Below are positions 15,936-40,362 of a DNA stretch of 64,000 nucleotides, piece by piece. Both the position numbers and the translations under genes were made by a program. This stretch comes from an uncultured Lachnospiraceae bacterium (GTDB lineage: Bacteria > Bacillota > Clostridia > Lachnospirales > Lachnospiraceae): positions 9,633 through 73,632 of the forward strand of contig CACZBF010000002.1 in assembly GCA_902779355.1 (NCBI GenBank). The letters run 5' to 3'. The notes under the pieces are model-generated. The model saw only the letters and a list, made by a program, of their open reading frames with translations. It was not told the DNA's origin and did no database searches. Within the stretch, counting starts at the first letter, position 1. Each line of letters begins with the position of its first letter.

Positions 15936-15964
15936 TTGACAGGTTCTGCCGATATAGATAATGG
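15936..15964 (+). promoter_or_regulatory. candidate promoter for the acidic coiled-coil gene
   Basis: TTGACA at 15936-41 followed 15-17 nt later by GATAAT/ATAATG (15957-63), about 95 nt upstream of ATG 16057. Confidence 0.3.
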
Positions 15965-16056
15965 AATACTATCTTTGTGCACGGAAGCGCAAAGGAATTG
16001 TGAGGCGATGCTTACTGAAAGTGGCATCGGATGCCGAATGCCAAGGAGGGCGCGCA

Positions 16057-17046
16057 ATGAATCTGTCAGTTCGACCATCTTTTCTGCAAGGAAATCAATC
16101 TGCTGCCAAGGGAATGACCGGGCAAAACGCGACATTGTTCACGCGTAACGGTTCTGTACATCTGTCCGGCGCCGGCATTGATCCCGCAAAACAATCTGAT
16201 CCGCACGAGGCCGCAAGGCAGTCCGCATTTGCGAGACGCCTGCGTCTGGCTGCGGAGGAGGCGAATCAGATGAAGCCGGCAGCGAAGACCTCGTCCAAAA
16301 AGGATTCCAAAACAACACCCAAAAAGAAGCTCATCTACAATTTTAAGGAGATCTCTGCGCAGATCTTTCGCGCGAAGAATTCTGTTTCTGCCGGGAAAGC
16401 TGTCTTTCAGGCAAAGCGCAAGGTCGTGGAGTTAAAGAAAAAACTTGCTTCCAAAGATGTCGATGCAGAAGAACTGTCGATTGCGCTCACGCATGCGAAA
16501 CGGATGGAGCTTGCGGCGCGGCGGAAGCAACGACATCTCGAGATCGAGGAATATGCCAAGAACCATCTGGACACGGAGGAAAAAAAGAGCGGATACGAAG
16601 ATGCGGCTTCTACGCTTCTGTCCGAGGCTGAAGAACGACTCGTTGAAGGGCAGGAAGAAGTGCTGGCGGAATCAGAAGAAGAACGGAAAGCAATGGCTGA
16701 AGAGCAATCAGAGCTGCTTTCTGAAGAGCTGTCAGAAGAAATGCAGGAAGAACTACAAGCTCTTCTTGGCGACGCCGAGGAAGAAGCCATGGCAATGCTG
16801 GAAGAAACGCTTGCGCAGATCGAGGGGCTTGAGATGGCCTCTCCCAACATGAGCGAAGAAGCGTTCAAAGAAATGCTACAAAAGCACCGCCACTCGGAGC
16901 AGAAAGAAATCCTGCGCGCCGACATGGATTACCTGAAAAACATGATCTCTTATCTGTATGAAAAAGGAGAAACAGAAAACTGCTTCACGACACCCTCTTC
17001 GGCGCCGCAAAGCAGCTTTGTCTGCACAGTTTCGTTTGAGGGGTAG
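16057..17046 (+). CDS. hypothetical acidic coiled-coil protein (329 aa)
   Basis: ATG 6 nt after AAGGAGGG. Basic N-terminal third (KKDSKTTPKKK), then a very Glu-rich helical region (EEERKAMAEEQSELLSEELSEEMQEELQALLGDAEEEAMAMLEE). I recognise no family. Confidence 0.6.
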   Translation: MNLSVRPSFLQGNQSAAKGMTGQNATLFTRNGSVHLSGAGIDPAKQSDPHEAARQSAFARRLRLAAEEANQMKPAAKTSSKKDSKTTPKKKLIYNFKEISAQIFRAKNSVSAGKAVFQAKRKVVELKKKLASKDVDAEELSIALTHAKRMELAARRKQRHLEIEEYAKNHLDTEEKKSGYEDAASTLLSEAEERLVEGQEEVLAESEEERKAMAEEQSELLSEELSEEMQEELQALLGDAEEEAMAMLEETLAQIEGLEMASPNMSEEAFKEMLQKHRHSEQKEILRADMDYLKNMISYLYEKGETENCFTTPSSAPQSSFVCTVSFEG

Positions 17047-17053
17047 CGCGATA

Positions 17054-17434
17054 CTACTCCACCACCGCAATCGCTTCGATCTCCACCAATGCCCCCTTCG
17101 GGATCGCTGCGGCCTGGAACGCCGCACGCGCCGGATAAGGCTCCGTAAAGAACTCCGCATAGACTTCGTTCATCGCTGTGAAATTTGCGATATCGGAAAG
17201 CAGCACGGTCGTCTTGACCACATCAGACATCTTTGCCCCTGCAGCGGCAAGGATGTTTTTGATATTGGTCAGGCTCTGTCTGGTCTGCGTTGCGATATCC
17301 GCTCCCGCGAACTCTCCCGTCACCGGATCGATCGGGATCTGCCCCGATACATAGATTGTATTGCCGCTTCGGATCGCCTGCGAATACGGGCCGATCGCCG
17401 CCGGCGCATCCTTGGTACTGACTGCCTGATTCAT
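17054..17434 (-). CDS. ridA: RidA-family reactive enamine/imine deaminase
   Basis: MNQAVSTKDAPAAIGPYSQAIRSGNTIYVSGQIPIDPVTGE...ARAAFQAAAIPKGALVEIEAIA is canonical YjgF/RidA. SD AAGGAGA. Confidence 0.9.
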   Translation of the reverse strand: MNQAVSTKDAPAAIGPYSQAIRSGNTIYVSGQIPIDPVTGEFAGADIATQTRQSLTNIKNILAAAGAKMSDVVKTTVLLSDIANFTAMNEVYAEFFTEPYPARAAFQAAAIPKGALVEIEAIAVVE

Positions 17435-17447
17435 CCTGTTCTCCTTT

Positions 17448-17702
17448 TTACCATTTCTTCTTCGGACAGCGGTTTGCCGCCACGTAAGCGCGGATCTCCA
17501 CATAGCACCCGCATGCCTCGCAGGTCGCTTCGGAAAGCTTTTCGCACGCCCGGCATACGGCGAGGCGCTCCTCATAAAGCGCCTCACTCGCCCGATCCTG
17601 CGGTTTGATCACCGCAAGATACTTTTGCAAATCCTTCTGGTCTTCCGCGGCCAGATCCCGCAGAAGACATTGTTTGCAAATCCTGACCGGCTTTTCTTCC
17701 AT
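17448..17702 (-). CDS. small Cys-rich protein (84 aa; CxxC x3 plus two further Cys), DUF6171-like
   Basis: ATG 17702 with an AAGGA SD overlapping the araD stop. Sequence MEEKPVRICKQCLLRD...AVCRACEKLSEATCEACGCYVE...NRCPKKKW. The family name is from memory and not certain. Confidence 0.6.
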   Translation of the reverse strand: MEEKPVRICKQCLLRDLAAEDQKDLQKYLAVIKPQDRASEALYEERLAVCRACEKLSEATCEACGCYVEIRAYVAANRCPKKKW

Positions 17703-23267: not shown

Positions 23268-23323
23268 TTCTGTCCCTCCTGAAAAATACTGTTCCTTCTC
23301 ACACTCCAGGATCGCGGCTGCGC

Positions 23324-23367
23324 AAAAAACAAGAGCGACGATTCCCGAAGTGCAGATCATCGCTCTT
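23324..23367 (-). terminator. rho-independent terminator downstream of the giant ORF
   Basis: Minus strand reads AAGAGCGAUGAU-N12-AUCGUCGCUCUU (12 bp, one G-U pair) followed by GUUUUUU, 68 nt after the stop at 23435. Confidence 0.55.
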
Positions 23368-23402
23368 ATTGTATCACAAATATCCGGCAAAAAAAACGGT
23401 AA
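23368..23402 (-). promoter_or_regulatory. candidate extended -10 promoter (TGTGATACAAT) abutting the terminator stem
   Basis: TACAAT (23373-68) with an upstream TG motif. The -35 region is only a T-run. This is the only promoter-like element between the giant ORF and the kinase gene. Confidence 0.25.
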
Positions 23403-23434
23403 CTTTCGCCGCGTTCATCCGTAACCGGGAGTCC

Positions 23435-26400
23435 TTATCCACGGATAAACGCATCCAGACGGTTGATGTAGATAAAGATCTGATTCCGGTCTTTCTCACT
23501 TTCATTTAAGAGCAGGCTATACTCCGGATCACTGATCAGATCATAGAGACGATTCAGAATATCCTCTGCTTGACGGCAATTGGCAGGCGTTCTCTTGACC
23601 GCCGGTTCATTACTTCCCGTGATCTCAAAAGCCTCCCCCGCAATACTGCTGTATGCAACACGCAGATCCTGAAGCTTTTGTGCCTGCTCCACTTCCTTCT
23701 GTCTCTCCATCACCCTTTCCTGAAAATCACCCAGCTTCTTCCGATAAGAATTGTAAATCTTCCGGAGCGGTTCAGCGTCCTCATGGTTTAGATGAGACAA
23801 TGGAACAGCATTCAGTTTTTCCGTCAGTTCTACGCAAAGCCTGATGTTTTCCTCAGTAAGATCAGGGATCACCTGGCAGAGCAGCTGCGGACAATCCTCC
23901 TGCATCTTCATCAGGGAAATATAGGTTTTTTCGGCGGCTGCCAGCTCTTTTTCCTCCGCCTCCTGCTTTACGGTAAATTTCTCCCAGATCAGATCCACTG
24001 CGGCGTGAATACTATCCGCCGTCTCCTTCAGGCTGTCAGAAAGGAGCGTACGAAGATCCTCCTCCCTGATGCAGTGATCAAGTGCTTCCAGGTTGTCCCG
24101 TAAAATCTCCAGTTCCTCCAACTCCTTGTCCGTGGGCACCCCTTTGATGGCGGATGTCGCCATTTTGGTTTCCTTGCACAGTTTTTGCGCAAGTGTGTCC
24201 GCACGCTCCACAATGGCGGTACGGATCTGTTCCCTGATCCGTTCAGCGAGATCCGTGATCATATTCAGATTTGACTCCTCATCGGAAAGCAGATACTTCT
24301 CTCTGAAAAGTCTTGCGCCGGAAGAAATCACATCGTTCACAGCACTCATCTTGGCGGAAAGCTCTCTGAAAGACTTCACGTCTATCAGCTTCGTCTCCTC
24401 GATCAAAAGGACCGCACTGTTCTGAAGCTCCACCAGTTCTGATCTCATGGCAGTGATATCCTTTTGCATGAGCTGATGCGTTCTGTTCTGTTGCAGGAGT
24501 CTCATTCGCTCACTCAGCCGCTCCATCCTGCTCTTTACCATGCTCTCAGCTTCAGCCCCTGCTTTCTTATACTGCGGGTAAAGCTCCGGTCCGCTCATCA
24601 CCTTCTTTAAGGTTTCCTCAAAGCCATCCAGTTCTTCCTTCGTGACCGACTCCTTCTTCTCCAGGGAATCCGCCTTTCTTTCCCCGATCCCTATGATGGC
24701 ATCCACCACTCTGAGCTGGTCTTTTCCGATCATCCGGTTCACGTTTTCCTGCTGCTGTTTTAAGTGGTCATAAACGCTCTGCCATTTGGTCACAGCGGAA
24801 TAATCCACGGCCTTGAAGATATCCGGATGATCCTCCCGGAGCTTCTCCATTTTCTCAATAAAGCTTCTCAGCCCCTTCTCCGCCGACTGCAAGGGTTTCA
24901 ATCTCTCGTTGTAATGCTTCAGAACCCGCCCGGCTTTCTGCTGCGGCTTTTCTCCGGCCTTTGCTTCCACTTCACTTCCCTGGACAAGCTTTTCAATCTG
25001 GAGGAACAGACTCCCCATGGATTCCCCTTCCGAAAGCTTCTGCAGCTCATCGAGACACTGTTCGTTCTGGGTGTGCTCCTTCATTTTCTGCTGGAACTGT
25101 CTTTCCTTCTCTTCCTCCTGCCGTTCTTTTTCCTGTTGTGTCCTGTCTTTTTCCTCTTTTTCTCTGATATCGGAAAGCAGCTGTTTCTCCTTCCATTCTG
25201 CCTCCGATCCATCCTGTCCGAAGATACCGTATCCCTTGAGGATCTGCTCGTTTTCGTTATAAAGCCGAACCAGCTCCGGATCACGCTCTTCCTCGGGTAC
25301 CAGAAGACGATATGCAGTCAGAAGCTTGGGCAGATAACGGAGAGGAAGGTATTTCCGGTCTTTTTTCATATCCTCCCAGGCTTCACACAGCTTCTTCTCT
25401 TCATCCGTGGCAAGCTCCGGAATGATCTGCATGGCCTGACTTACGCGCCGGTAGTTTTGCAGCAGCACGTCCATGGAACCGCGTTTGATCACATCCTCGA
25501 TAAAGGCAGAATAGCCTTCCTTCAACTGGGACAGAAGATCCCTGACCGATGCCAGATCCTTCGCTCTTTCATAAAAATCGGAGCCTGCTTGTTCCCCGTA
25601 TTTGTTCAGATATTGTCCGCAGGAGAGCGCAAGGCTCGCCGCTTTTCTCGCCTCCTCCAGTTCCGGCGTGATCAGATCGCTGTCCTTCGTCTCCTTGATG
25701 GTTTTCACGGCATCCGTGATCACCGCATACTCCTGTTCTCTTTCCGCTTCCTGCGACGCCTGCAGCCGGGCAACACCGATCTGATCCCTGATCTGAATCA
25801 GCTCCTCCCGGAATGCACTGTTGTAAAGGCCGAATTCTTCCGAGCACCACTTTTGATACTGCGAGACCTCTTCTTCGAATTTGCGGATCAGTTCGAGACA
25901 CGCAAAAGCACGCTTGCCTTTCTCTCCGAGAAGGATCTCTTTTTGCAGGTTTCTGAGTCGTTCTTCTTTTCTGGTGCGCTCAGCCAGGATTTTTTGTTTC
26001 TGTCTCTCCTTCTCCAGTTCTATTTCCTGTTTTTTCAGGAGTTCTTTCCTTTCCTCCTCTTCCTTCTCCTGCTGGTCGGCAAGTTTCTTTTCAAGATCGG
26101 CCCGTTGCTGTTCTTTCACCTGCCTTTCCTTTTTTTCCTGTTCCTCGTTCTCCTTTGCCTTCTTCCTCTGATTATTGAGCTCTTTCCTTACGGATCTGAC
26201 GTAACGGTTATAGGCCTCGATCTCTTCGGGTATCAGGTAAAGATTGACCCGATCGGATTCCGCATTCAGCGGCGGGTAGTTCTGATAATCCCTGATCTCT
26301 TCCTCGGACATGGCATTCGGATCGTTTTTGATCTCTTCGATCTGTTCTTTGGTGAGGTAACGGAACACGTCCTTATAATCGCTAAGAACGCTTTGGACAT

Positions 26401-28318
26401 CAATGGCCCAGGTTTTCAGCTCCTCTCCCTTCATTTTTTTCGCATGTTCCCCACGGACACGTCGGCGCGCCGCAAGGCGTTCCTTTTTGATCCTTTTGAT
26501 CTCTTCCTCAAAATCGACGTTCTGACCGGCGCGGTTTTCTATCTCCTGGTCGAGCAGAGCCATTGCTTCATCCACCATCTTCTCAAGCTCTTTTTTCGAT
26601 CCCTTGAAGCTCTCCCGGATCATCCGCTCCAGTTTGACCCTTTCCTTGAGACGAACGTGAACCTTCTTCTGATTCTCCCGCTTCTCAAAGACTTTTCTCA
26701 ATTGTTCGACCTTCCAGTCTTCATACTTCGGGTCAGATGCATCGGAAAATCTAGAATTTCGAAGCTTTCTGTCCTCCTCCGGAATCTCCTTTTCCTCGAT
26801 GTATTCGTCTTTGATATTGGTATAGTCCGTCTCGAACTGCTTTTCTTCCTTCCGATAAAGCGAAAGAAGTGCATCCTCCGCCTCCATGGTTTGGGTTCTC
26901 TGCGCCTCCGGATAAAATTCCAATGAAAGGAGCCGGTTCTCCTCCTGGGAAAAATCCTCCCGGCCGTTTTCCAGTTTCTGTGCCAGAGAAAAAAGCCGTT
27001 TCACTCTCTCCTCCAATAGGATCAGACGCTGTTTTTCCTTCTTTGCCTCCCGTTCAAAGTATGCCGGAGAGATGGTTTTGTCCATGCGTTTCCTGTCGGT
27101 CTTTTCAAAACGGTGGTTCCTGTAGCGGCTGAAATTGGCGGAGGCGATGGCTTTTTTCAGTTCTCTTCTGACTGCCTTTGCCACCAGAACGGATTCCGAT
27201 GTCACCTCGACCTCACGATCCTGATACCGGACGGTTTCTTTCTTTTCTTCCGGTTTTTTCAGCTGTTTCTCCCCTGCTGCCGCTTCCCGGTATTCCCGGT
27301 ATATACGGTTGGGATCGTAGGTCTGTCCGCGTTTTACCAGAGCCAGATTCAGCAATGTTTCATTCCGTTGTCTGATCTCTGCCTGACTCTCCGTCACACG
27401 CGCAAACTGCTTCTGACATTCTGCAGCCATCATCTGACGGAAGCTGGCCGCCGTGGAGCTTTCCGTAAAGGCAACATAAGAATGAAGGGCGGACCGGTTT
27501 GCGACAGCATCCATGGGACAGGCAACCCCGTTCATCTTTTCCAGGAGTCTTAAAAACTCACGAAATGCAGGAAGGGCCTTCCCCTGCACGGAGATCTCAT
27601 ACTGACGCTGTTTTTCTTCTGCCGTCTCGTTGCCGCCGATTTTCGGATAGATCTTTGAGAGGATGGAAAGTCTTCTGTAGTCGCAATACAGGCTCCGGAA
27701 ATTTTTGGACGCAACTTCCGGATTTTGCAGCTGCGACGGAAATTCCATGGCGCGGGTTTCATCCATCATGTCCCTGATGGCACCTAAGGGCTCTTTTTTG
27801 AATCGATCCAGATATTTGGCAAAAAGACTCTTCTGATTGGAAGAGGGGGGATTCAGCAAAAACTCCTTTTGAGGAACAAACGAGAGGAGCAGTTCCACCA
27901 GAAGATCCTGCTGCGTCTTGCCATCACCAAGGGCAGCAAACAGTCCCTCCTTTTTCCGCCGGACCTCCTTCACCGCATCTACGATCTCTGTGCTGTAAAT
28001 GTCGTCCGTATTTACCAGCTGGTCATATTCCGCAAGAAAACCCTGCTGCATGGAATCTGTCAGTTCCGAGTATTTCATCAACGCAGAATTCTTCTGCTGA
28101 CGGAACTTATCCAGGTCCTTTTTTTGGATATGATCCTCGGCATTTCGATATGCAGTCTGAATCTGCCCGGACACCCCCTCCTGACGGCTCATGGTGTCCA
28201 TTTCCCGCGAGTAGGCGTCCCGCATCACCTGAAATTCCCTGGTTTTCCCGGTTGTGTCTACGGAATGAAATAACTGTTGTTGTTTCCGCTGCTCTTCCAG
28301 TGTAAAATGATCGCTCAT
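23435..28318 (-). CDS. orphan giant protein, 1,627 aa, predicted all-helical, E/K/Q/R/L-rich; no recognisable domain
   Basis: Uninterrupted 4,884-nt ORF with SD GAGGGGGGA 7 nt before ATG 28318. I see no signal peptide or TM-length hydrophobic run. Two dense charged tracts lie at about 25930-26175 and 25075-25170. Confidence 0.8.
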   Translation of the reverse strand: MSDHFTLEEQRKQQQLFHSVDTTGKTREFQVMRDAYSREMDTMSRQEGVSGQIQTAYRNAEDHIQKKDLDKFRQQKNSALMKYSELTDSMQQGFLAEYDQLVNTDDIYSTEIVDAVKEVRRKKEGLFAALGDGKTQQDLLVELLLSFVPQKEFLLNPPSSNQKSLFAKYLDRFKKEPLGAIRDMMDETRAMEFPSQLQNPEVASKNFRSLYCDYRRLSILSKIYPKIGGNETAEEKQRQYEISVQGKALPAFREFLRLLEKMNGVACPMDAVANRSALHSYVAFTESSTAASFRQMMAAECQKQFARVTESQAEIRQRNETLLNLALVKRGQTYDPNRIYREYREAAAGEKQLKKPEEKKETVRYQDREVEVTSESVLVAKAVRRELKKAIASANFSRYRNHRFEKTDRKRMDKTISPAYFEREAKKEKQRLILLEERVKRLFSLAQKLENGREDFSQEENRLLSLEFYPEAQRTQTMEAEDALLSLYRKEEKQFETDYTNIKDEYIEEKEIPEEDRKLRNSRFSDASDPKYEDWKVEQLRKVFEKRENQKKVHVRLKERVKLERMIRESFKGSKKELEKMVDEAMALLDQEIENRAGQNVDFEEEIKRIKKERLAARRRVRGEHAKKMKGEELKTWAIDVQSVLSDYKDVFRYLTKEQIEEIKNDPNAMSEEEIRDYQNYPPLNAESDRVNLYLIPEEIEAYNRYVRSVRKELNNQRKKAKENEEQEKKERQVKEQQRADLEKKLADQQEKEEEERKELLKKQEIELEKERQKQKILAERTRKEERLRNLQKEILLGEKGKRAFACLELIRKFEEEVSQYQKWCSEEFGLYNSAFREELIQIRDQIGVARLQASQEAEREQEYAVITDAVKTIKETKDSDLITPELEEARKAASLALSCGQYLNKYGEQAGSDFYERAKDLASVRDLLSQLKEGYSAFIEDVIKRGSMDVLLQNYRRVSQAMQIIPELATDEEKKLCEAWEDMKKDRKYLPLRYLPKLLTAYRLLVPEEERDPELVRLYNENEQILKGYGIFGQDGSEAEWKEKQLLSDIREKEEKDRTQQEKERQEEEKERQFQQKMKEHTQNEQCLDELQKLSEGESMGSLFLQIEKLVQGSEVEAKAGEKPQQKAGRVLKHYNERLKPLQSAEKGLRSFIEKMEKLREDHPDIFKAVDYSAVTKWQSVYDHLKQQQENVNRMIGKDQLRVVDAIIGIGERKADSLEKKESVTKEELDGFEETLKKVMSGPELYPQYKKAGAEAESMVKSRMERLSERMRLLQQNRTHQLMQKDITAMRSELVELQNSAVLLIEETKLIDVKSFRELSAKMSAVNDVISSGARLFREKYLLSDEESNLNMITDLAERIREQIRTAIVERADTLAQKLCKETKMATSAIKGVPTDKELEELEILRDNLEALDHCIREEDLRTLLSDSLKETADSIHAAVDLIWEKFTVKQEAEEKELAAAEKTYISLMKMQEDCPQLLCQVIPDLTEENIRLCVELTEKLNAVPLSHLNHEDAEPLRKIYNSYRKKLGDFQERVMERQKEVEQAQKLQDLRVAYSSIAGEAFEITGSNEPAVKRTPANCRQAEDILNRLYDLISDPEYSLLLNESEKDRNQIFIYINRLDAFIRG

Positions 28319-28356
28319 ACTCTCATCCCCCCTCAGTATGTTTTCTCAATCCATAA

Positions 28357-28381
28357 GGAAACGAAGCGATTTCGTTTCCTA
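28357..28381 (-). other. 10-bp hairpin between the protease gene and the giant ORF
   Basis: AGGAAACGAA-N5-TTCGTTTCCT. On the minus strand it is followed by TATGGATT (poor U-tract), so it may be a processing or partial-termination site. Confidence 0.35.
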
Positions 28382-28400
28382 TACTCCTTTATACGATGGA

Positions 28401-30554
28401 TTATGTTGTCTGGAAGCTGATACTGCCATCTTCATTCACACTGAACTGTACTGCATCGGAGAGATAATAATCTCCGTAAATGTCGTCGATGGAGAACAGA
28501 TATCTGTAATCCGCCGGCTCCATCAGGTCATAGTAGATAGCGGTTTCAGAATCCACTGTGTACTCGCTTCCGTAGTAGGGTAATTCATCGTCCCCGTCCA
28601 TGCTGTAAGCCGTATAGGTCGGCACGATCACATCCCCTTCCTTCAGAGGGATGATGTTTCTGGCCGCCGAACCGTTTTCATCGATTCCGTCCCAGGTCCC
28701 CTCAATCTCGACCGATCCGTCTGCAAAATACTGCTTCATTCTGAGGTTCGTCTCCTCGCCGTTGAGGAGGATCGTTGCCGTGTAAAGGTTGTACTCATCC
28801 GTCACTTCGACCAGATAAATGGATAGGTTCTGGCCATCCGGGAGCGACAGCCAATAGCCGTCGAAATCATCATAGAAGACTCCCGTCTCCCAGTCTCCGT
28901 TCACATCCCGGCTCTCTCCGAGCACGATCAGATTTTCTCCGTCAGACGAAATTTCATAAACCAGCGCGCTCACGTCAGACGCATTTTCATTTCCGTTTTC
29001 GTCCAGTTGGAACCAGAAGGTTCCCTGCTCGTCCAACTGCGGTTCTTCCGCAAACGTGATATACGGGCTCTCTCCGGTCGGTTCATACTCATCCAGATAT
29101 GCCCAGTGGGAATCGTCCTCCTGCTCAGTAGAATGCCACTCACCTGCATCGTCGAACCATTGCGTGTCATCGTAGTCTTCAACCGGCGTGCCTGCGACAC
29201 CGCTCTGATTCTGCCGGTCTACAAACGAAAGGTAATAGGGGCTGATACAGACCTTACCAAAAATCGACAACTCCTCAGAACCCTGGATGCTCAGCGGATA
29301 ATACATGGAAAGGCCGGACGCCCCCTGATGCCCCGGTCCTTCCGCAGAATAGACGACGGCAAGATCCAGATCCTTCAGGACCGTTTTCGCGCAGTCGGCA
29401 TAGTCTTCTCCGGCGCCAATGATCCCGCCCAGATCCACCATGTTGGTATAGCCTTCGGTCGCATTGTTTCCGCCATAGTTATCCGAAGACTTGATCGCTC
29501 TTACGATCTGAGAAAGATCAGTGGCATCCTTTCCCGCTTCATACATCCCTCTTGCATATGCATTAAAGCTTTCCAGCAGTTCATCCACCTTCGAAAGATC
29601 GATCACCGACTGCGTCGCGACATCGTCCTCACCGCTTTCTACACAGGAAGCAAGAAAGCTGTCACAGATCACCTTCCCGACTGCAGCGCCATCCGCTCCC
29701 GGATTCTTTGCAATAAAGTCACTGATCGCCGTATAATCATAACCGCTGCCCGGCATGATCTCCTGCGAGGCCACCATGTAATCCGCGTAAGAAGCCACCA
29801 CGTTTGCTGTCTCTATGGTTGCCATCAGACAGGCATCGAACCCGATAAAATCAAATTTGCGCCCAAACGTCTCTGCACAGGCAAGTAACGCACTATCCAG
29901 CTGTTTGAGATCCATGGAATCGCCATAATTGATCTCGTCAAAGCAGACCCCTGTGATGCTGCCGCCGCCGTGATCCCATAAAATGAGCCCCATATGATCC
30001 GACGGATAATTGGTGACGCCCCATTGCAGGAAATTGGCAAGCGTCTGTGGATCCGCCATGTTTGACATCTCCACTTCATCCACCAGGTACATCTCTCCAT
30101 CCTGGATCAGATACCTCTGGTTGGTCTGGTTGTCTATCACTTCGTTGTTCCACGTCTCTGTACCGCCGGTCTCCACCACAAACCGGAGATGATCGCCCTT
30201 GGTCTGGATCATCTCCCCCAGATCGCCGGTTGCGGCTCCGTACTCACTTTCCAGATCCGTTCCGCAAAGATAGACAAAGATCGTCCACGCATCATCCCCG
30301 ATGTCAGCTGCCTGATCGCCGAATGTGATACGGTCGATATTCATCTCACCGCTTGCGCCGTCCACATTCAGGCTCACACCGGTGATCTTGTCAAGGAGGG
30401 AGGTACTCCCTTGCGCCCCTTCCGATTGTCCTGTTGTTTCCGCCCCGTCCATTGCGCCCGGGTCGTTCTCATTTCCTGCACTGTCCCCTGTACATGCGGT
30501 TGCCGACACGGCAAACACAAGTGCCAGGATAGCTGCCAATAGTTTTCGTTTCAC
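28401..30554 (-). CDS. clostripain-family (peptidase C11) cysteine protease lipoprotein with a ~300-aa C-terminal extension
   Basis: GTG start 30554 (the next in-frame Met lies beyond the signal peptide). Lipoprotein-like LALVFAVSATAC. Catalytic His/Cys contexts GLILWDHGGGS and FIGFDACLMAT. Confidence 0.85.
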   Translation of the reverse strand: MKRKLLAAILALVFAVSATACTGDSAGNENDPGAMDGAETTGQSEGAQGSTSLLDKITGVSLNVDGASGEMNIDRITFGDQAADIGDDAWTIFVYLCGTDLESEYGAATGDLGEMIQTKGDHLRFVVETGGTETWNNEVIDNQTNQRYLIQDGEMYLVDEVEMSNMADPQTLANFLQWGVTNYPSDHMGLILWDHGGGSITGVCFDEINYGDSMDLKQLDSALLACAETFGRKFDFIGFDACLMATIETANVVASYADYMVASQEIMPGSGYDYTAISDFIAKNPGADGAAVGKVICDSFLASCVESGEDDVATQSVIDLSKVDELLESFNAYARGMYEAGKDATDLSQIVRAIKSSDNYGGNNATEGYTNMVDLGGIIGAGEDYADCAKTVLKDLDLAVVYSAEGPGHQGASGLSMYYPLSIQGSEELSIFGKVCISPYYLSFVDRQNQSGVAGTPVEDYDDTQWFDDAGEWHSTEQEDDSHWAYLDEYEPTGESPYITFAEEPQLDEQGTFWFQLDENGNENASDVSALVYEISSDGENLIVLGESRDVNGDWETGVFYDDFDGYWLSLPDGQNLSIYLVEVTDEYNLYTATILLNGEETNLRMKQYFADGSVEIEGTWDGIDENGSAARNIIPLKEGDVIVPTYTAYSMDGDDELPYYGSEYTVDSETAIYYDLMEPADYRYLFSIDDIYGDYYLSDAVQFSVNEDGSISFQTT

Positions 30555-30558
30555 TTTC

Positions 30559-32430
30559 TTAATCCTCTGCTATGACAATAAAGCAATCTTCATCTCCCCA
30601 TTCCACCATCGTGTCTTTCGGAGGATTGGAGATGATCGTATAACTGTCTGTCTCCGGGTCATATTTCCGGTATCCGATCAGGACCTCTTGGCGAATTGCT
30701 GCCGCATAGCCAGCCGTATAAATGTTGACCGGCCGCTCGGTACGGATATAATGCTTCGCGGGACGTACATAGATCTCCGATCCCTCCTCCGTCAGCAATT
30801 CATGGAAGATCTCCTTCAACTCGCGGTACTGCGAGATCTGCGCCAGGAGCAGGCTCGAGATATTCCGGCCAATGACAAAATCGTTGACCTCCGTGATCTC
30901 GGCAAGTTCCTCGTTCTCAGAACGAAGCACCTCGCTCGTCACCTTCATACGGTGTCCCTTTCCGGCCAGATATTTCAGCTGCAACAGCACCATCAGGATC
31001 TTGGCGTCTTTCATTTCCGCATCCTCATCCGTCATCCCATCCTCGGCATCCGCCAGAACAAGCACGAGCGTGTTATCATTTCTCAAAAGTTTCTCCAGCT
31101 CGTCGCGGTCGTAGATATCCGTCACCAGCACCTGCAATTTGATGTTCTCGAAACTAAGGGCATTCAGTTCCTCATAATGCTCCGCCTGATCCTCCGGGAT
31201 CGCAATGGTGACAAGGGATCCGTTTGCCACGTAGTGATCCTCTTCCCCTAAGATCAGCGGGATATTACTGCTGTACCCAAGGATCAGAATGTCGTTTGTC
31301 AGCGGATCTTCCGGTACATGCTTCGTAAGGACCGCTGTCTGATCCACAGCGGCCGGTTCTGCAGCCGGCGTACTCACCCCGTCATCCTCCGCAAACAGGA
31401 TCAGTCTGTCCCCTGCTTCCAATACAGTCTGCGGATCCGGATTGATCAGGATCTGTCCGTCCGGCTTTCTCATGCCGGCCACAATGGAAACCGGGAAATA
31501 GCGGTTCAACTCAAACATCGGCTGGCCGACGACCTCCGGATGTTCCTCGATGTAAAACTCACTGCCGTCATAATCGAAGAGCTCGGTATAAACGGCCGAA
31601 AGACCGGCATGTCTGCTGGTGTGTGCAATGATGCGGCTCATAGCATCCCTGAAGCTCAGGATCTCCGCATAGCCTTCGCCCGCGATCTCCGCCGCCTGAA
31701 TGTTGTGTTCGTCACGAATCACGGCTGTGATGTAGCAGTTTTTGTTGCCGGACTCCTTGATGAGCTTCGTGACGGCAAGGATGCTTTTGATCGTCAGGAA
31801 ATCATCATCCACATTGATGATGACGCTGCGGCAGGTGTCGATGGAGCACACGGCCAGATCATTCAGGTCGCAGATACTGCCGGATCTACAGATGACACGT
31901 GTCGTCTTCGTATCCGGGAACCGCTGGCGGATATGTTCGTCCATCTCATCCTTCGGGATCTTGTCATCCATAATGACAAGCGCCTCTCTCTTTTGATTCA
32001 GGTTCGCTTCGATCAGTTCGGAAACGATCGTATAGATCCCGTTATCCGTCCCCAGGACCACAACGTGATTTTGTTCCACAACAATGGATTTTCCTCGCCT
32101 GAGCTCTTGTACCCTGTCATCGATCGCATTGCAGATAATACCGGTCAAAGTACTGGTCAGCAGGATTCCGATAAAGCAGACCACCAGCATGAAAACGATG
32201 TAAAAAACAGAGCCGTCTCCGTCTTCCGCCATGGTACCCGGGTCCATGATGTGAAGCAGGGCCGTGAACACACCGTTTGCATAACCCGCGTCCCGGTTGA
32301 AGATCGCATAAACCAGAAGTCCTACCCCAAACACCGCTATGGCGGTCACAATAAACAGAAGCCGGACCAATGCGCCGGTGCCGGACGCCATCTGGTTGTC
32401 AAACCAGTACTGAAACTTATTCTTTTTCAT
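30559..32430 (-). CDS. CASTOR/POLLUX-related putative cation channel with tandem RCK/TrkA-like domains
   Basis: ATG 32430 after GAGAGGAGA. N-terminal TM helices (LLFIVTAIAVFGVGLLVYAIF; FYIVFMLVVCFIGILLTSTL) flank a pore-loop-like HIMDPGTMAED. Two Rossmann-like starts follow: HVVVLGTDNGIYTIV and DILILGYSSNIPLIL. Confidence 0.75.
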   Translation of the reverse strand: MKKNKFQYWFDNQMASGTGALVRLLFIVTAIAVFGVGLLVYAIFNRDAGYANGVFTALLHIMDPGTMAEDGDGSVFYIVFMLVVCFIGILLTSTLTGIICNAIDDRVQELRRGKSIVVEQNHVVVLGTDNGIYTIVSELIEANLNQKREALVIMDDKIPKDEMDEHIRQRFPDTKTTRVICRSGSICDLNDLAVCSIDTCRSVIINVDDDFLTIKSILAVTKLIKESGNKNCYITAVIRDEHNIQAAEIAGEGYAEILSFRDAMSRIIAHTSRHAGLSAVYTELFDYDGSEFYIEEHPEVVGQPMFELNRYFPVSIVAGMRKPDGQILINPDPQTVLEAGDRLILFAEDDGVSTPAAEPAAVDQTAVLTKHVPEDPLTNDILILGYSSNIPLILGEEDHYVANGSLVTIAIPEDQAEHYEELNALSFENIKLQVLVTDIYDRDELEKLLRNDNTLVLVLADAEDGMTDEDAEMKDAKILMVLLQLKYLAGKGHRMKVTSEVLRSENEELAEITEVNDFVIGRNISSLLLAQISQYRELKEIFHELLTEEGSEIYVRPAKHYIRTERPVNIYTAGYAAAIRQEVLIGYRKYDPETDSYTIISNPPKDTMVEWGDEDCFIVIAED

Positions 32431-32483
32431 CACTTTCTCCTCTCAATTCTCTCCTTCTTTCTTTTCTGAAAGAAGGTAGTTCC

Positions 32484-32511
32484 ATCATAACTCTCAAATC
32501 GAAAAATGTCA
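32484..32511 (-). promoter_or_regulatory. candidate promoter of the channel-protease unit (TGACAT-16-TATGAT)
   Basis: Minus strand reads TGACAT (32511-06), a 16-nt spacer, then TATGAT (32489-84), about 55 nt upstream of the ATG. The -35 sits inside an 8-bp inverted repeat AAATGTCA-N10-TGACATTT. Confidence 0.4.
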
Positions 32512-32551
32512 GCCTAAATGGTGACATTTCTAAAAAATCCTGTAATTACGC

Positions 32552-32587
32552 AAAAAAATCTCCGCCCTCAAGGACGGAGACTTTTTT
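32552..32587 (-). terminator. rho-independent terminator of the monosaccharide ABC operon
   Basis: TCTCCGTCC-TTGA-GGGCGGAGA flanked by an A-run and a T-run (could act in both directions), 11 nt after the permease stop. Confidence 0.7.
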
Positions 32588-32597
32588 GTCTGAGTGA

Positions 32598-37940: not shown

Positions 37941-39347
37941 CTACTGGAAAGGCTTGATCCATGCGGCATAGCCGGCAGGCACTGATGTGTACTGGAGGAG
38001 ATATCCGTCGCTCGTTTCCTCCATCACCTTGCAGTAGAGCTCACCGCCCGCTTCTACCTGAAGATTGTCATATACCTCCAGCGGCGTCTCCGTTTCGAAC
38101 AACGCCCTGTCGTTTGCCACGGCAACGATCCCGCCGTAGTAACGTTTTGCCGCGCCATGTTTTCCTTCTATCTTATGGAAGGAAACCGGTACCGTCGTCT
38201 TCAGCGGCTGCGGCTCCGTGTGCCCGGTGTTGACGTAGATCTTGTAAGATCCGCCGATCCCGGTCACGTGCGAAATCGTTAAAGAACCTTCATGCCCCTT
38301 CGGATAGACCACCATTTCATTGGCGATCTCAAGATCCACGGCTGCGCTCTTCTTCGTATCCGGAGAGATCAGCACCTGTCCTCCCACGGTATAGCTCTCG
38401 ATCCGGCCGCAGAGATTGACGTTGCTCCCGGCCACGCCATATTTCGTGCGTTTCTCCGAACCGATATTGCCGACGATCACATCGCCCGTATGCAGACCGA
38501 TCCCCATCTCTAGCGTGGCGTATCCGTGCTCGTTGTTCCATTTATTGATGTCAGCCATCGTGCGCTGCATCTCAAGCGCTGCAGCAACCGCATCCGCCGC
38601 ATGATGATCCGACTGCGCCGGTGCGCCGAAGATCGCCATGATCCCATCACCGATAAACTCGATAATCGTGCCGTTGTATCGCTGGATCACCTCTGTCATG
38701 GCGCCGAGATAATGGTTGAGCATCGTGATCAGGTCGTTGGCATCCATATGCTCACTCAGCGCGGTAAAGCCTCTGAGGTCGCTCATCATGATCGTGAGCA
38801 CCTGCTTCTTGCCGCCGAGCGCAAGCCCGTCCGGCGTATCCAGGAGCTGCTTCACGATCTCGTCGGAAAGGAATCGTCCGAATGTCGTGCTGAGGAGCTG
38901 ATTACGCATCTCCAGGCGCTCGTTGAGGCTCTGAATCCGCTTCAGCGACTCTGCCGCATCACGAAGCTCCATGAGCTCACTCATATCACGGAACACGATG
39001 ATCACGCCCGTGCGTTCTTTGTTCTCCGTGTAGAAAGAAGTGACCACACGCAGGACCAGCTTTTTTTCGCCGACCATATAAGAAACGATGGCATCATGCG
39101 CCTTCGCCCGGTCATAGACCGCGTTCAGTACCGCCTGGGAAAACTCGTCGTTCTCCGGCCTCTCAAAGAAAACAGCCGCAAACTTCCGCCCCAGCGTCTC
39201 CTCCCGATTCAGCGCAAGGATCTCTTCCGCTGCCGGATTAAAGTACTCAATGACACCGTCAAATCCGATCAGCATAACGCCTTCGGACATGTGCCGGACA
39301 ATACTGTCTGTTTGGAATCCCGATGGATCATTCAACGGTTTTTGCAC
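37941..39347 (-). CDS. PAS-domain class III adenylate/guanylate cyclase with a ~95-aa C-terminal extension
   Basis: Cyclase motifs MMSDLRGFT, IEFIGDGIMAIFG, GLHTGDVIVGNIG, GSNVNLCGRIES. N-terminal PAS (GVMLIGFDGVIEYFNPAAEEILAL). The start is uncertain: GTG 39347 (GAGGAG SD), GTG 39380 or ATG 39290. Confidence 0.85.
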   Translation of the reverse strand: MQKPLNDPSGFQTDSIVRHMSEGVMLIGFDGVIEYFNPAAEEILALNREETLGRKFAAVFFERPENDEFSQAVLNAVYDRAKAHDAIVSYMVGEKKLVLRVVTSFYTENKERTGVIIVFRDMSELMELRDAAESLKRIQSLNERLEMRNQLLSTTFGRFLSDEIVKQLLDTPDGLALGGKKQVLTIMMSDLRGFTALSEHMDANDLITMLNHYLGAMTEVIQRYNGTIIEFIGDGIMAIFGAPAQSDHHAADAVAAALEMQRTMADINKWNNEHGYATLEMGIGLHTGDVIVGNIGSEKRTKYGVAGSNVNLCGRIESYTVGGQVLISPDTKKSAAVDLEIANEMVVYPKGHEGSLTISHVTGIGGSYKIYVNTGHTEPQPLKTTVPVSFHKIEGKHGAAKRYYGGIVAVANDRALFETETPLEVYDNLQVEAGGELYCKVMEETSDGYLLQYTSVPAGYAAWIKPFQ

Positions 39348-40362
39348 GATACTCCTCTGTCTCCTTCTGAATCTCAGCACTTGGCATTTCGTTGTTCTCC
39401 TCAGCCTTTGTCACCTGATATACCAGACGGCAGGCGTTCAGATAATCCTTTGTCAGTCTCCGCAGACGGGAAGAAAGATGAGATAAGATCATGCGGACCT
39501 TCGGCGGATTCTGCTCAAAAAGATCGTAAAGGTCCTCAGGCTGGATCGTTTCGATCGTGGTCTCATCCTCCAGCGTGATCGCGGTCGCGCTGCGCGGATC
39601 GCTGCAGATCATCCCCATCTCGCCAAAGAACTGATTCGGATAAACCTCCGTCAGCAGCTTCTCGGACGGTGTCGCATAATCACGATAGATACCAATCTTG
39701 CCACTGTGTACATCATACATACAGTTGCCATTCTCGCCTTCGCGGAAGATAACGGTCCCCTTCGGGAACTGCTCCACCTGTACGGAAAAGCCTTCGGAAA
39801 GATTTCTTTCCTCTTGCTGTCTGGCTGCCTCAACACTGACCTGTGATGCAGTTTTCCGGTGCATGCTATAGTAAGCCGCGTGTTTCTTAAGGCGCTGGAT
39901 CAGACTCTCACTCCGTCCGCTCGTATCACCCGGCTTCATCTCCCTGATCGCTGCATTGACCTCAGCATAATCATTGGTGAGCACACGCACTCTGTCGCCC
40001 AGATAACGCATGATCTCAAGGATCATATCCGGCGAGGAACGGAAGTATTCGTCCATCTGCCCGGACGGCACCTCGATCATTTCCACATCATCACTCAACG
40101 ATACAGCGGTAGCGCTGCGGGCGAAAGATTCGATGACAGCCATTTCCCCAAGAAACTGTCCCTTCCCAAGCTCCGTCAGAAGCTTCTCTCCGCTCTCCCC
40201 ATAGTTGGCATAGACCCCAACCTTGCCGCCGGTGATCTGGTAAAAGCATTCTCCTTCGTCTCCCTCACGGAAGATCACATCGCCTTTTGCGAACTGCTTT
40301 GTTTGCATCTCTTTAACCTGCCTTTCCTTCTCTTTTTGGTTGATTGAAACCGCTGTTTTCAT
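39328..40362 (-). CDS. tandem cyclic-nucleotide-binding (CNB) domain protein without an output domain
   Basis: Two phosphate-binding cassettes: GQFLGEMAVIESFARSATAVS and NQFFGEMGMICSDPRSATAIT. Each follows a beta-barrel start (FAKGDVIFREGDEG / FPKGTVIFREGENG). The C-terminus is a short helical tail with no HTH. Confidence 0.85.
   Translation of the reverse strand: MKTAVSINQKEKERQVKEMQTKQFAKGDVIFREGDEGECFYQITGGKVGVYANYGESGEKLLTELGKGQFLGEMAVIESFARSATAVSLSDDVEMIEVPSGQMDEYFRSSPDMILEIMRYLGDRVRVLTNDYAEVNAAIREMKPGDTSGRSESLIQRLKKHAAYYSMHRKTASQVSVEAARQQEERNLSEGFSVQVEQFPKGTVIFREGENGNCMYDVHSGKIGIYRDYATPSEKLLTEVYPNQFFGEMGMICSDPRSATAITLEDETTIETIQPEDLYDLFEQNPPKVRMILSHLSSRLRRLTKDYLNACRLVYQVTKAEENNEMPSAEIQKETEEYRAKTVE

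What the first reader, a model, noticed from the sequence alone, without database searches (positions are those of the whole stretch)
23435..28318. Orphan 1,627-aa helical, charge-rich giant protein with no recognisable domain
Seen in sequence:
- One uninterrupted 4,884-nt ORF with a good SD (GAGGGGGGA, 7 nt before the ATG) and a strong terminator 68 nt downstream.
- By eye there is no signal peptide, no TM-length hydrophobic run, no cell-wall anchor and no catalytic signature.
- Composition is dominated by E/K/Q/R/L.
- Two very dense charged tracts look like ER/K single-alpha-helix or coiled-coil spacers between larger, less charged helical blocks. One is at nt ~25930-26175 (NEEQEKKERQVKEQQRADLEKKLADQQEKEEEERKELLKKQEIELEKERQKQKILAERTRKEERLR). 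The other is at nt ~25075-25170 (EKEEKDRTQQEKERQEEEKERQFQQKMKE).

Inference:
- It is not SMC-like, because there is no N-terminal Walker A head or C-terminal signature motif.
- It is not in a phage or T7SS context, and there is no LXG/WXG motif.
- A cytoplasmic protein of this size inside a sugar-utilisation region, directly downstream of a channel and a protease, is the least explained object in the window.
Basis: partly seen in the sequence, partly recalled or inferred. Interest (0 to 1): 0.72.

Follow-up and report, generated by a model that had tools for sequence, protein, structure and literature searches.

The report
Orphan giant helical protein gene cassette
This is a real, selected gene for a 1,627-residue all-helical protein with no detectable relatives, carried on a 5-kb accessory cassette recently exchanged between related rumen Lachnospiraceae lineages; its function is unknown and is most likely structural rather than enzymatic.

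Summary
An intact 4,884-nt ORF lies on the minus strand at 23435-28318, with the stated ribosome-binding site, terminator, composition and two charged tracts.

No Pfam, NCBIfam, PHROG, PADLOC or PDB match was found. Searches of billions of proteins returned only its own ≥97% cluster of 11 members. AlphaFold2 single-sequence models are almost entirely helical but low-confidence, and Foldseek gives only generic helical rods.

The gene is real and constrained: dN/dS is 0.1-0.23 and every full-length allele is intact.

New findings:
- A related MAG has the same channel-C11-FGGY synteny but no giant gene, so the gene is a 5.0-kb indel between the C11 stop codon and a terminator shared with that empty site.
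- The channel and protease therefore do not need it.
- Flanking genes differ at dS 0.57-0.94 between three carrier lineages, while the giant gene differs at dS 0.025-0.07. This indicates recent exchange by homologous recombination, or a gene-specific sweep.

Best guess (0.4): a cytoplasmic, non-enzymatic modular scaffold with two ER/K spacer helices. A conflict or defence role cannot be excluded. The sequence family is new, but there is no evidence for a new kind of system.

The parts
23435..28318 (-). Giant ORF: 1,627 aa, 191 kDa, pI 5.6, predicted almost entirely alpha-helical, with no signal peptide or TM segment
   Evidence: dN/dS is 0.10-0.23 between alleles.
23397..28400 (-). 5.0-kb indel (cassette) missing from the syntenic empty site of a related MAG. 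It holds an 82-nt leader, the ORF and a 38-nt tail, and lies between the C11 stop codon and the T8 run shared with the empty site. The boundary is ambiguous by about 1 nt.
   Evidence: Empty site is L009 12161-12301.
28326..28334 (-). Shine-Dalgarno sequence GAGGGGGGA, 7 nt before the ATG
28356..28380 (-). Leader hairpin AGGAAACGAA-AUCGC-UUCGUUUCCU, 20 nt after the C11 stop codon, with no U-tract. It is identical or nearly so in lineages A and D and weaker in B. Its role is unknown; attenuator or RNA end are possibilities.
   Evidence: (the fold of the whole leader is not significant, z = -1.27)
27914..27937 (-). Residues 128-135, AALGDGKT. This is the only match to the Walker-A pattern [AG]x4GK[ST] and is probably chance.
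   Evidence: 5% of shuffled sequences contain such a match. There is no Walker B, and the low-confidence AF2 model places it between two helices.
25937..26209 (-). ER/K tract 1, residues 704-794. It is about 60% charged and modelled within one continuous helix spanning residues 697-799. Candidate single alpha-helix spacer of about 13-14 nm.
   Evidence: Opposite-charge pairs at i/i+3 and i/i+4 exceed shuffles at z ≈ 2, P = 0.02-0.03.
25067..25207 (-). ER/K tract 2, residues 1038-1084. It is about 62% charged and modelled as a helix at low confidence.
   Evidence: The charge-pair arrangement does not differ significantly from shuffles (P = 0.07-0.17).
23438..23716 (-). C-terminal module, residues about 1535-1627. 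This is the best-predicted part, modelled as four helices (seg 717-772, 783-801, 803-811, 813-831). Alleles of 1,635 aa add RKVVTNPV at the end.
   Evidence: (pLDDT 59-91)
23389..23396 (-). T8 run present in the empty site as well; homology with the empty site resumes here
23322..23367 (-). Intrinsic terminator (hairpin plus U-tract), also present in the empty site, that now ends the transcription unit after the giant gene
28401..30554 (-). Upstream neighbour: 717-aa Peptidase_C11 (clostripain-family) protein with an N-terminal signal peptide and a lipobox-like ATAC. It is not dependent on the giant gene.
30559..32433 (-). Upstream neighbour: Castor/Pollux-type RCK ion channel, ending 4 nt before the C11 start codon
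32484..32512 (-). Best sigma-70-like promoter match (10/12) upstream of the channel gene. It is a possible promoter for a channel-C11-giant transcript, by consensus match only.

Best explanation
**Shown**
- The ORF is a genuine protein-coding gene under purifying selection.
- It encodes a 191-kDa, acidic, non-repetitive protein that is almost entirely alpha-helical. It has no export signal and no detectable relatives outside its own ≥97% cluster.
- It sits on a 5.0-kb indel, inserted or retained between the C11 stop codon and a terminator shared with the empty site, in a small clade of ruminant-gut Lachnospiraceae.
- A related lineage has the same locus without it.
- Three lineages whose flanking genes are diverged at species level carry nearly identical copies. 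The copy has therefore recently moved between them by homologous recombination in the immediate flanks.

**Inferred**
- The protein is cytoplasmic and non-enzymatic.
- It works as an elongated modular scaffold or tether made of three helical modules: N about 1-700, middle about 800-1035, and C about 1085-1627.
- Two stiff ER/K-type helices, about 13-14 nm and about 7 nm long, hold the modules apart and act as spacers between binding modules.
- It is probably transcribed by read-through from the channel-C11 unit, because it lies upstream of that unit's terminator.
- It is not a functional partner of the channel or the protease.
For: **Real gene**
- dN/dS is 0.15 (A-B), 0.23 (A-D) and 0.16 (B-D). 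It is 0.10 in the most diverged 5' 630 nt. 69 of 105 A-B differences fall on third codon positions.
- 5.0% of possible single-nucleotide changes would create a stop codon. About 5 stops would be expected among the 105 A-B differences, and none is seen.
- Seven of the eight listed full-length alleles (1,627 or 1,635 aa) were read and have no internal stop.
- GC by codon position and codon usage resemble the neighbouring genes.

**Helical, with no export signal**
- AF2 secondary structure is almost entirely helical, with one continuous helix over residues 697-799.
- The highest Kyte-Doolittle 19-residue mean is 0.98. There is no LPxTG motif.

**Non-enzymatic and non-repetitive**
- There are no family hits in Pfam, NCBIfam, PADLOC, PHROGs or PDB sequences.
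- There is no catalytic motif set and no internal repeat.

**ER/K spacers**
- Only two tracts meet the charge and hydrophobicity criteria. The charge-pair arrangement in tract 1 exceeds shuffles, P ≈ 0.02-0.03.
- Single alpha-helix (SAH) domains are described as semi-flexible linkers in prokaryotic and eukaryotic proteins (PMC5378345 abstract).

**Rod-like**
- The only Foldseek matches are weak hits to spectrin or plakin repeats, the MUN domain, the dynein tail and designed helical repeat proteins.

**Accessory cassette**
- The empty site is in L009, which is also L028.
- Flank dS is 0.57-0.94. Giant-gene dS is 0.025-0.07.
- The A-D high-identity tract runs only from about 28450 to about 23200.
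- Three distinct flank backgrounds carry the gene.
Against: - There is no direct evidence for any function, partner, location or expression.
- The AF2 models are low-confidence (mean pLDDT 46 and 54), so the module boundaries and the 'rod' shape are weak.
- Tract 2 shows no significant charge patterning. Single-alpha-helix versus coiled-coil behaviour cannot be decided by sequence.
- A purely structural housekeeping role does not explain why the gene is dispensable in a sister lineage yet has recently spread across lineages. That pattern fits conflict or niche-adaptation genes better.
- The absence of a profile hit does not exclude a divergent catalytic domain in the roughly 700-residue N-terminal part.
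- The exhaustive search did not even return the protein's own cluster, so its negative result is weaker than it looks.
Confidence: 0.4

Rival explanations
1. The gene is a conflict or defence module. It would be a single-gene anti-phage or anti-mobile-element factor, or another niche-adaptive factor, whose benefit drove its recent spread across lineages. The helical body would act as a sensor or decoy, or carry a domain too divergent to recognise.
For: - Distribution is accessory, with presence or absence at one fixed site.
- dS is 10-30 times lower than in the flanks across three lineages.
- Alleles are mosaic.
- The same locus has a second variable spot that holds MazE-PIN, PIN plus a transposase, or an AAA_14/DUF4143 ATPase in other lineages. 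That resembles a variable island.
Against: - There is no PADLOC or PHROG hit.
- There is no nuclease, NTPase, protease, TIR or SIR2-type domain or motif set.
- There is no partner gene inside the cassette.
- The window lineage has no toxin-antitoxin or defence genes nearby; the context is sugar catabolism.
Confidence: 0.2
2. The protein is exported or surface-associated by a non-classical route. It would be a substrate or partner of the adjacent extracellular C11 (Arg-specific clostripain-like) lipoprotein, forming a helical fibril or a processed product.
For: - It lies immediately downstream of C11 and upstream of the shared terminator, so co-transcription is plausible.
- It is rich in Arg and Lys (18%).
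- Long helical rods are common among Gram-positive surface proteins. In another MAG the ORF after a related channel is a secreted Ala-rich protein with a signal-like N-terminus, a hydrophobic C-terminal segment and no Pfam hit.
Against: - There is no signal peptide, TM segment, LPxTG, LXG or WXG motif, and no secretion-system genes in 64 kb.
- Channel-C11 occurs without it, and C11 homologues sit in unrelated contexts.
- It has no sequence repeats, unlike typical surface fibrils.
Confidence: 0.1
3. The protein is a degenerate SMC/Rad50/SbcC-like or other P-loop protein. The ATPase head would be split between the N-terminus (AALGDGKT, residues 128-135) and the C-terminus (LLLNE, residues 1602-1606), joined by long helices.
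For: - There is one match to [AG]x4GK[ST], conserved in all alleles.
- An 'hhhhNE' string lies near the C-terminus.
- There is a weak sub-threshold DUF3584 hit (E = 0.029, 12 bits against a cut-off of 31).
Against: - The Walker-A pattern occurs in 5% of shuffles. There is no hhhhD[DE], no LSGG-like motif and no CxxC hook.
- There is no SMC_N, AAA_23 or SbcC_Walker_B profile hit even at E ≤ 10 on segments.
- Only 21 residues follow 'LLLNE', too few for D- and H-loops.
- The motif sits between two helices in the (low-confidence) model, not after a strand.
- Heptad-like segments cover only about a quarter of the protein.
Confidence: 0.05
4. The ORF is non-functional. It would be a chance or decaying open frame, or an artefact of purine-rich sequence, with the real gene perhaps on the other strand (720-aa ORF at 24764-26926, + strand).
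For: - It has no homologues and no domains.
- A long antisense ORF exists.
- One assembly carries a frameshifted copy (P0009 and P0010).
Against: - dN/dS is 0.1-0.23, with third-position bias in the minus-strand frame.
- About 5 stops would be expected among 105 differences and none is seen.
- It has a strong Shine-Dalgarno sequence and an ATG start, and host-like codon usage.
- The antisense ORF is what GAR- and AAR-rich codons produce.
Confidence: 0.03

Closest known systems
ER/K single alpha-helix (SAH) domain proteins, for example the myosin VI/X lever extensions (general description in PMC5378345)
   Same: There are two Pro/Gly-free tracts of 91 and 47 residues, about 60% charged and ≤17% hydrophobic. 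Tract 1 is modelled as part of one continuous 103-residue helix. The tracts lie between less charged helical blocks, as spacers do.
   Different: There is no homology to any SAH-containing family. Charge-pair ordering is only marginally above shuffles for tract 1 and not significant for tract 2. Whether the helices are monomeric has not been tested. The tracts make up less than 9% of the protein.
Spectrin-repeat, plakin and EzrA-type helical-bundle rod proteins
   Same: The protein is all-alpha and built from many 15-60-residue helices. These are the best, though non-significant, Foldseek matches: plectin plakin repeats E = 0.034 and beta-spectrin repeats E = 0.2-0.4.
   Different: No match reaches E ≤ 1e-3 and TM-scores are ≤0.35. 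There is no spectrin or EzrA Pfam hit, no internal repeat periodicity and no N-terminal TM anchor of the kind EzrA has (that EzrA feature is from my own knowledge).
Bacterial coiled-coil-rich cytoskeletal proteins (crescentin, FilP/Scy, Ccrp)
   Same: It is a large, charged, helical bacterial protein with no export signal and no enzymatic domain.
   Different: Heptad-like segments cover only about 27% of residues in nine separate patches, rather than one continuous rod. There is no sequence similarity. Those proteins are conserved core genes of their lineages (my own knowledge), whereas this one is an accessory cassette.
SMC/Rad50/SbcC/MukB-type ATPases
   Same: The size is similar, helices are long, and there is a single Walker-A-like string near the N-terminus.
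   Different: There are no profile hits, no Walker B or signature motif, and no hinge or zinc hook.
Phage tape-measure and minor-tail proteins
   Same: They are long helical proteins and appear among the weak BFVD Foldseek matches (E = 2e-3 to 0.2, TM < 0.2).
   Different: There is no phage context in 64 kb, no PHROG hit, no tblastn hit in 50,697 phage records, no IMG/VR hit and no TM segments.

Membership tests
SMC/Rad50/SbcC-type ABC ATPases | N-terminal Walker A within an SMC_N or AAA_23-type head recognised by profile | tested here: not met
   There is no Pfam or NCBIfam hit for the whole protein or for segments at E ≤ 10. There is a lone pattern match, AALGDGKT at residues 128-135, which 5% of shuffles also contain.
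SMC/Rad50/SbcC-type ABC ATPases | C-terminal Walker B (hhhhDE) and signature motif (LSGG-like) | tested here: not met
   Regex scan found 0 hhhhD[DE] and 0 [LIVM]SGG. Only 'LLLNE' is present, 21 residues from the end.
SMC/Rad50/SbcC-type ABC ATPases | Central hinge or CxxC zinc hook between two long coiled-coil arms | tested here: not met
   There is no CxxC. Heptad-like segments are short and scattered.
ER/K single alpha-helix (SAH) segments | Long tract rich in E, K and R (plus Q), poor in hydrophobic residues, without Pro or Gly | tested here: met
   Residues 704-794 and 1038-1084 are the only regions with ≥55% charged, ≤20% hydrophobic and no Pro or Gly in 28-residue windows.
ER/K single alpha-helix (SAH) segments | Ordered opposite charges at i/i+4 (and i/i+3) beyond what composition gives | tested here: inconclusive
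   Tract 1 gives z = 1.9-2.0, P = 0.02-0.03. Tract 2 gives z = 1.0-1.5, P = 0.07-0.17, against 2,000 shuffles.
ER/K single alpha-helix (SAH) segments | Stable monomeric helix in solution | not testable with these tools
   This needs CD, analytical ultracentrifugation or SAXS on the isolated tracts. AF2 models one helix over residues 697-799 at pLDDT about 66-77.
Spectrin-repeat / EzrA-like rods | Recognisable repeat units by profile or by internal periodicity | tested here: not met
   There are no Pfam hits. Self-BLASTP found no off-diagonal match at E ≤ 10. The best window-against-window hhalign probability is 24.9%, between the two ER/K tracts only.
Spectrin-repeat / EzrA-like rods | Structural match to three-helix-bundle repeats | tested here: inconclusive
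   Foldseek against PDB gives plectin 5j1i at E = 0.034 and spectrin at E = 0.2-0.4, with TM ≤ 0.35 and nothing at E ≤ 1e-3. The query models have mean pLDDT of 46 and 54.
Phage tape-measure proteins | Location in a tail-gene module, with a tape-measure profile or PHROG match | tested here: not met
   Neighbours are sugar-catabolic genes. There is no PHROG hit at E < 0.1, no phage tblastn hit and no IMG/VR hit.
T7SS LXG/WXG substrates and polymorphic toxins | N-terminal LXG or WXG100 domain, T7SS genes nearby, variable C-terminal toxin with a downstream immunity gene | tested here: not met
   There is no LXG or WXG Pfam hit and no WxG motif. No Pfam hit to a secretion-system component was found among the ORFs scanned. 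The C-termini of the two allele types are homologous rather than replaced. The next gene is the FGGY kinase.
Gram-positive surface fibrillar proteins (M-like, LPXTG-anchored) | Signal peptide, cell-wall anchor and sequence repeats | tested here: not met
   There is no hydrophobic N-terminus, no LPxTG and no repeats.
Known anti-phage defence systems (PADLOC-DB 2.0) | Match to a model of a known or candidate defence protein | tested here: not met
   There are 0 families at E ≤ 1.

The most novel reading that the evidence does not exclude
The cassette encodes the founding member of an unseen protein family. On this reading, the protein's selective value (for example single-gene protection against a rumen phage, predator or competitor, or a new kind of intracellular tether) has driven a recent gene-specific sweep across several Lachnospiraceae lineages. 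It would then be a new single-gene adaptive module built from non-repetitive helical domains with ER/K spacers, not just an uncharacterised scaffold.
Probability: 0.2. Interest if true: 0.75.

Novelty: new variant of a known kind. Interest (0 to 1): 0.5.

Why it matters
**Orphan status.** A 1,627-residue protein under purifying selection with no detectable relative among billions of sequences is an extreme case of a taxonomically restricted gene. Such genes are usually short.

**Population signal.** The gene is nearly identical across lineages whose neighbouring genes differ at dS 0.6-0.9, and it is absent from the same site in a sister lineage. This shows that it is being moved and kept, so it does something that matters in the rumen.

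**Practical value.**
- It is a well-delimited 5-kb target with natural 'with' and 'without' backgrounds for testing the function of a giant orphan.
- It is a possible bacterial example of ER/K spacer helices.

**Annotation caution.** The adjacent channel and C11 protease should not be used to infer its function.

Tried and rejected
**Profile and sequence searches**
- Whole-protein and segment scans against Pfam, NCBIfam, PADLOC, PHROGs and PDB sequences found nothing significant.
- The best sub-threshold hits are compositional: SGTA_dimer E = 0.006, DUF1062 E = 0.022 and DUF3584 E = 0.029.

**Homologue searches**
- The full-length word-indexed search returned only P0001, but it was saturated at 8,000 candidates, probably by E/K-rich words.
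- Residues 1-345 returned only a 100%-identical fragment.
- Exhaustive phmmer of residues 800-1627 against 1.84 billion representatives gave 0 hits. Neither nor one search returned the protein's own cluster representative, so recall is imperfect or the protein's own cluster is hidden.

**Pattern and tblastn scans**
- GTDB species representatives gave no hit.
- JGI metagenomes gave one 1,275-bp fragment.
- IMG/VR gave no hit. Plasmid and phage tblastn gave none.

**Structure**
- Only near-identical sequences exist, so AF2 ran without an alignment. Models are low-confidence.
- Foldseek against PDB and BFVD found nothing at E ≤ 1e-3.

**Co-occurrence test**
- Large ORFs downstream of related channels in other MAGs are unrelated. 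They include a C11-amidase fusion, a Flg_new-repeat protein and a secreted Ala-rich protein.

**Mobile-element signatures**
- The cassette ends show no target-site duplication or inverted repeat. No integrase or transposase lies in the window near the gene, and there is no tRNA or Rfam hit.

**Other**
- Internal repeats were rejected.
- Foreign origin is not supported by GC content or codon usage.
- A literature search for the run and assembly accessions found nothing.
Full report
**1. The observation**

The ORF runs from 28318 down to 23435 on the minus strand and encodes 1,627 aa from an ATG start. GAGGGGGGA at 28326-28334 precedes the ATG by 7 nt.

The hairpin and U-tract terminator lie at 23322-23367, about 65-68 nt past the stop codon. 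The 3' region folds at -40.3 kcal/mol, z = -3.7.

Composition is E 14.0, L 10.3, K 9.8, R 8.1, A 7.2 and Q 6.7 %. Mass is 190.9 kDa and pI is 5.6. The most hydrophobic 19-residue window scores only 0.98 on the Kyte-Doolittle scale. LPxTG, WxG, CxxC and HExxH motifs are absent.

The two quoted peptides are residues 724-789 (nt 25952-26149) and 1053-1081 (nt 25076-25162). A scan for Pro/Gly-free windows with ≥55% charged and ≤20% hydrophobic residues finds exactly two regions, 704-794 and 1038-1084.

The upstream genes are a Castor/RCK channel and a Peptidase_C11 protein. The rest of the window encodes arabinan, arabinose and galactose utilisation, sugar ABC transporters and sensors. No Pfam hit to a phage or secretion-system component was found among the ORFs scanned. 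There is no tRNA and no Rfam hit.

**2. Is it a real gene?**

Yes. I compared three alleles from different genomic backgrounds: A is this window, B is L001 and D is L013.
- dN/dS is 0.15-0.23 overall and 0.10 in the most diverged 5' 630 nt.
- 69 of 105 A-B differences are at third codon positions.
- 5.0% of possible point changes would create a stop codon. About 5 stops would be expected among 105 neutral changes, and none occurs.
- Of the eight listed full-length alleles (1,627 or 1,635 aa), the seven whose sequences were read have no internal stop.
- GC by codon position (58/31/60%) and codon choice resemble the neighbouring genes.

The 720-aa antisense ORF at 24764-26926 (+) is the expected by-product of GAR- and AAR-rich codons.

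**3. Does it belong to anything known?**

No match was found in Pfam, NCBIfam, PADLOC, PHROGs or PDB sequences, either for the whole protein or for four segments at permissive thresholds.

Sequence searches gave the following results.
- A search of 5.8 billion proteins returned only P0001, at 97% identity.
- The 90% cluster has 11 members, all ≥97% identical or fragments.
- The N-terminal 345 residues found only an identical fragment.
- Exhaustive phmmer with residues 800-1627 against 1.84 billion representatives found nothing.

One caveat applies. Searches did not return the protein's own cluster representative, so these negatives are not airtight.

Other collections were also negative. Scans of 185,579 species-representative genomes, JGI metagenomes and IMG/VR gave nothing apart from one 1,275-bp fragment. 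tblastn against plasmid and phage collections gave nothing.

AlphaFold2 had to run without an alignment. Mean pLDDT was 46 for residues 1-800 and 54 for residues 796-1627.
- Secondary structure is almost entirely helical.
- One continuous helix spans residues 697-799.
- The better-predicted parts are about residues 1126-1445 and 1536-1627.

Foldseek against PDB and BFVD gave no hit at E ≤ 1e-3. The weak hits were generic rods: plakin and spectrin repeats, the MUN domain, the dynein tail, designed helical repeat proteins and tape-measure-like proteins.

There are no internal repeats. Heptad-like patches cover about a quarter of the residues.

A single Walker-A-pattern match, AALGDGKT at residues 128-135, is at chance level: 5% of shuffles contain one. 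No Walker B or signature motif accompanies it.

**4. The locus in relatives**

Contigs carrying the gene show channel-C11-giant-FGGY kinase-transketolase-AraA.

A related Lachnospiraceae MAG, GCA_045661345.1, appears here as L009 and also as L028. It was the only representative genome in the GTDB scan whose channel is 90% identical; the next best is 76%. Its synteny matches from the sugar ABC transporter through channel and C11 to the FGGY kinase. Only 141 nt separate C11 from FGGY, and there is no giant gene.

Junction alignments place the indel at window 28400 to about 23397, a length of 5.0 kb. Homology with the empty site stops right after the C11 stop codon and resumes at a T8 run. The strong terminator follows that run and is present in the empty site too.

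No target-site duplication or inverted repeat was seen. The direction of the event, insertion or precise deletion, cannot be resolved.

Three conclusions follow.
- Channel and C11 do not need the giant gene.
- The 'strong terminator' is present in the empty site too, so it was not brought in by the giant gene.
- The gene probably relies on read-through from the channel-C11 unit. The leader hairpin at 28356-28380 has no U-tract, and the only promoter-like match near the gene is weak.

C11 has a signal peptide with a lipobox-like cysteine, so it acts outside the cell. Full-length C11 homologues are numerous: 3,887 hits at E ≤ 1e-10, and those that carry a source name are mostly Lachnospiraceae. 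They occur in unrelated contexts. Large ORFs that follow related channels in other MAGs are unrelated to the giant protein.

**5. Population signal**

| Comparison | Region | dS or nucleotide identity |
|---|---|---|
| A, B, C, D (all pairs but one) | flanking genes | dS 0.57-0.94 |
| A-D | giant gene | dS 0.025 |
| A-B | giant gene, whole | dS 0.07 |
| A-B | giant gene, central 3.6 kb | dS 0.03 |
| A-B | giant gene, 5' 630 nt | dS 0.30 |
| A-B | giant gene, codons 1401-1567 | dS 0.13 |
| C-D | channel gene | 99.9% nt identity |
| C-D | C11 gene | 84.5% nt identity |

The C-D channel pair is the one exception to the flank range (dS 0.002). The flank values correspond to 78-91% nucleotide identity, which is species-level divergence over the shared block.

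In the A-D comparison, the ≥96% identity tract runs only from about 28450 to about 23200. That is the cassette plus a few tens of bases of each flank.

Three flank backgrounds carry near-identical cassettes, and further alleles are mosaics of A-type and B-type ends. The cassette has therefore been exchanged recently between diverged lineages by homologous recombination. The more diverged ends of the B allele show that the gene is not brand new in the clade.

The whole locus is a recombination mosaic, as the C-D channel and C11 values show.

**6. Mechanism**

What is shown is a selected, accessory, non-repetitive, all-helical, acidic 191-kDa protein with no export signal and two ER/K tracts.

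My best inference, at confidence 0.4, is a non-enzymatic modular scaffold or tether. Three helical modules would be separated by stiff charged helices of about 13-14 nm and about 7 nm, calculated at 0.15 nm per residue. SAH domains are described as semi-flexible linkers in prokaryotes and eukaryotes (PMC5378345).

The scaffold idea does not explain the cross-lineage spread or the dispensability in a sister lineage. For that reason a conflict, defence or niche-adaptation role is the main rival (0.2).

The other rivals rank lower:
- an exported partner or substrate of C11 (0.1);
- a degenerate SMC-like ATPase (0.05);
- a non-functional ORF (0.03).

**7. Verdict**

The implied link to the channel and protease does not.

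The sequence family is new. The architecture, a helical rod with ER/K spacers, is a known kind of protein design, and nothing here demonstrates a new kind of system. Interest is moderate (0.5). The gene is a clean, well-delimited and evidently selected giant orphan with natural presence and absence backgrounds, but it has no functional handle yet.

Noticed in passing
window 32434-32597; L009 7171-7838; L001 242-1899; L013 311-1603: There is a second variable spot just upstream of the channel gene. The window has a bare 164-nt spacer there. Related lineages carry MazE plus PIN, PIN plus a DDE_3 transposase, or an AAA_14/DUF4143 ATPase at the same place.
   Followed up: partly
L009 8038-9996 versus L013 1768-3639: The channel genes of two lineages are 99.9% identical in nucleotide sequence, while their adjacent C11 genes are 84.5% and their FGGY genes 85% identical. 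The whole locus is a recombination mosaic, not only the giant gene.
   Followed up: partly
window 28401-30554 (-) and 30559-32433 (-): The C11 clostripain-family protein has a signal peptide with a lipobox-like ATAC and starts 4 nt after the stop codon of a Castor/RCK channel. It is the fastest-evolving gene of the block: 73-76% aa identity and dN 0.15-0.17, against 0.006-0.056 for its neighbours. The reason for pairing a channel with a secreted protease is unknown.
   Followed up: partly
window 24764-26926 (+): A 720-aa antisense ORF lies inside the giant gene. It is a by-product of purine-rich GAR and AAR codons, and substitutions follow the minus-strand frame.
   Followed up: yes
proteins P0009 and P0010 (ENA assemblies), equivalent to window about 25150-25170: In ENA assemblies, P0009 (6,314-nt contig) leaves the reading frame inside ER/K tract 2, ending ...LLSDIREKGKRQDTTGK.... 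P0010 (3,536-nt contig) starts just downstream at MKEHTQNEQ.... This may be a sequencing or assembly error in an A/G-rich run, or a real pseudogene. It has not been resolved.
   Followed up: no
window 37941-39380 (-) and 39328-40362 (-): A PAS-domain adenylate/guanylate cyclase and a protein with two cNMP-binding domains sit beside the sugar ABC transporter and a sugar-binding-protein, histidine kinase and AraC-type response-regulator set. This suggests cyclic-nucleotide control of sugar uptake.
   Followed up: no
window 15961-17046 (+) and 16958-17608 (+): Two ORFs of 361 and 216 aa have no Pfam hit at E ≤ 1e-5. On related contigs a 329-aa gene with no family is called at the first position.
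   Followed up: no
tool behaviour: The exhaustive representative search (residues 800-1627) and the word-indexed search with residues 1-345 both failed to return the protein's own cluster representative (P0001). That protein is in the collection. Negative results from these tools should be read with that in mind.
   Followed up: partly
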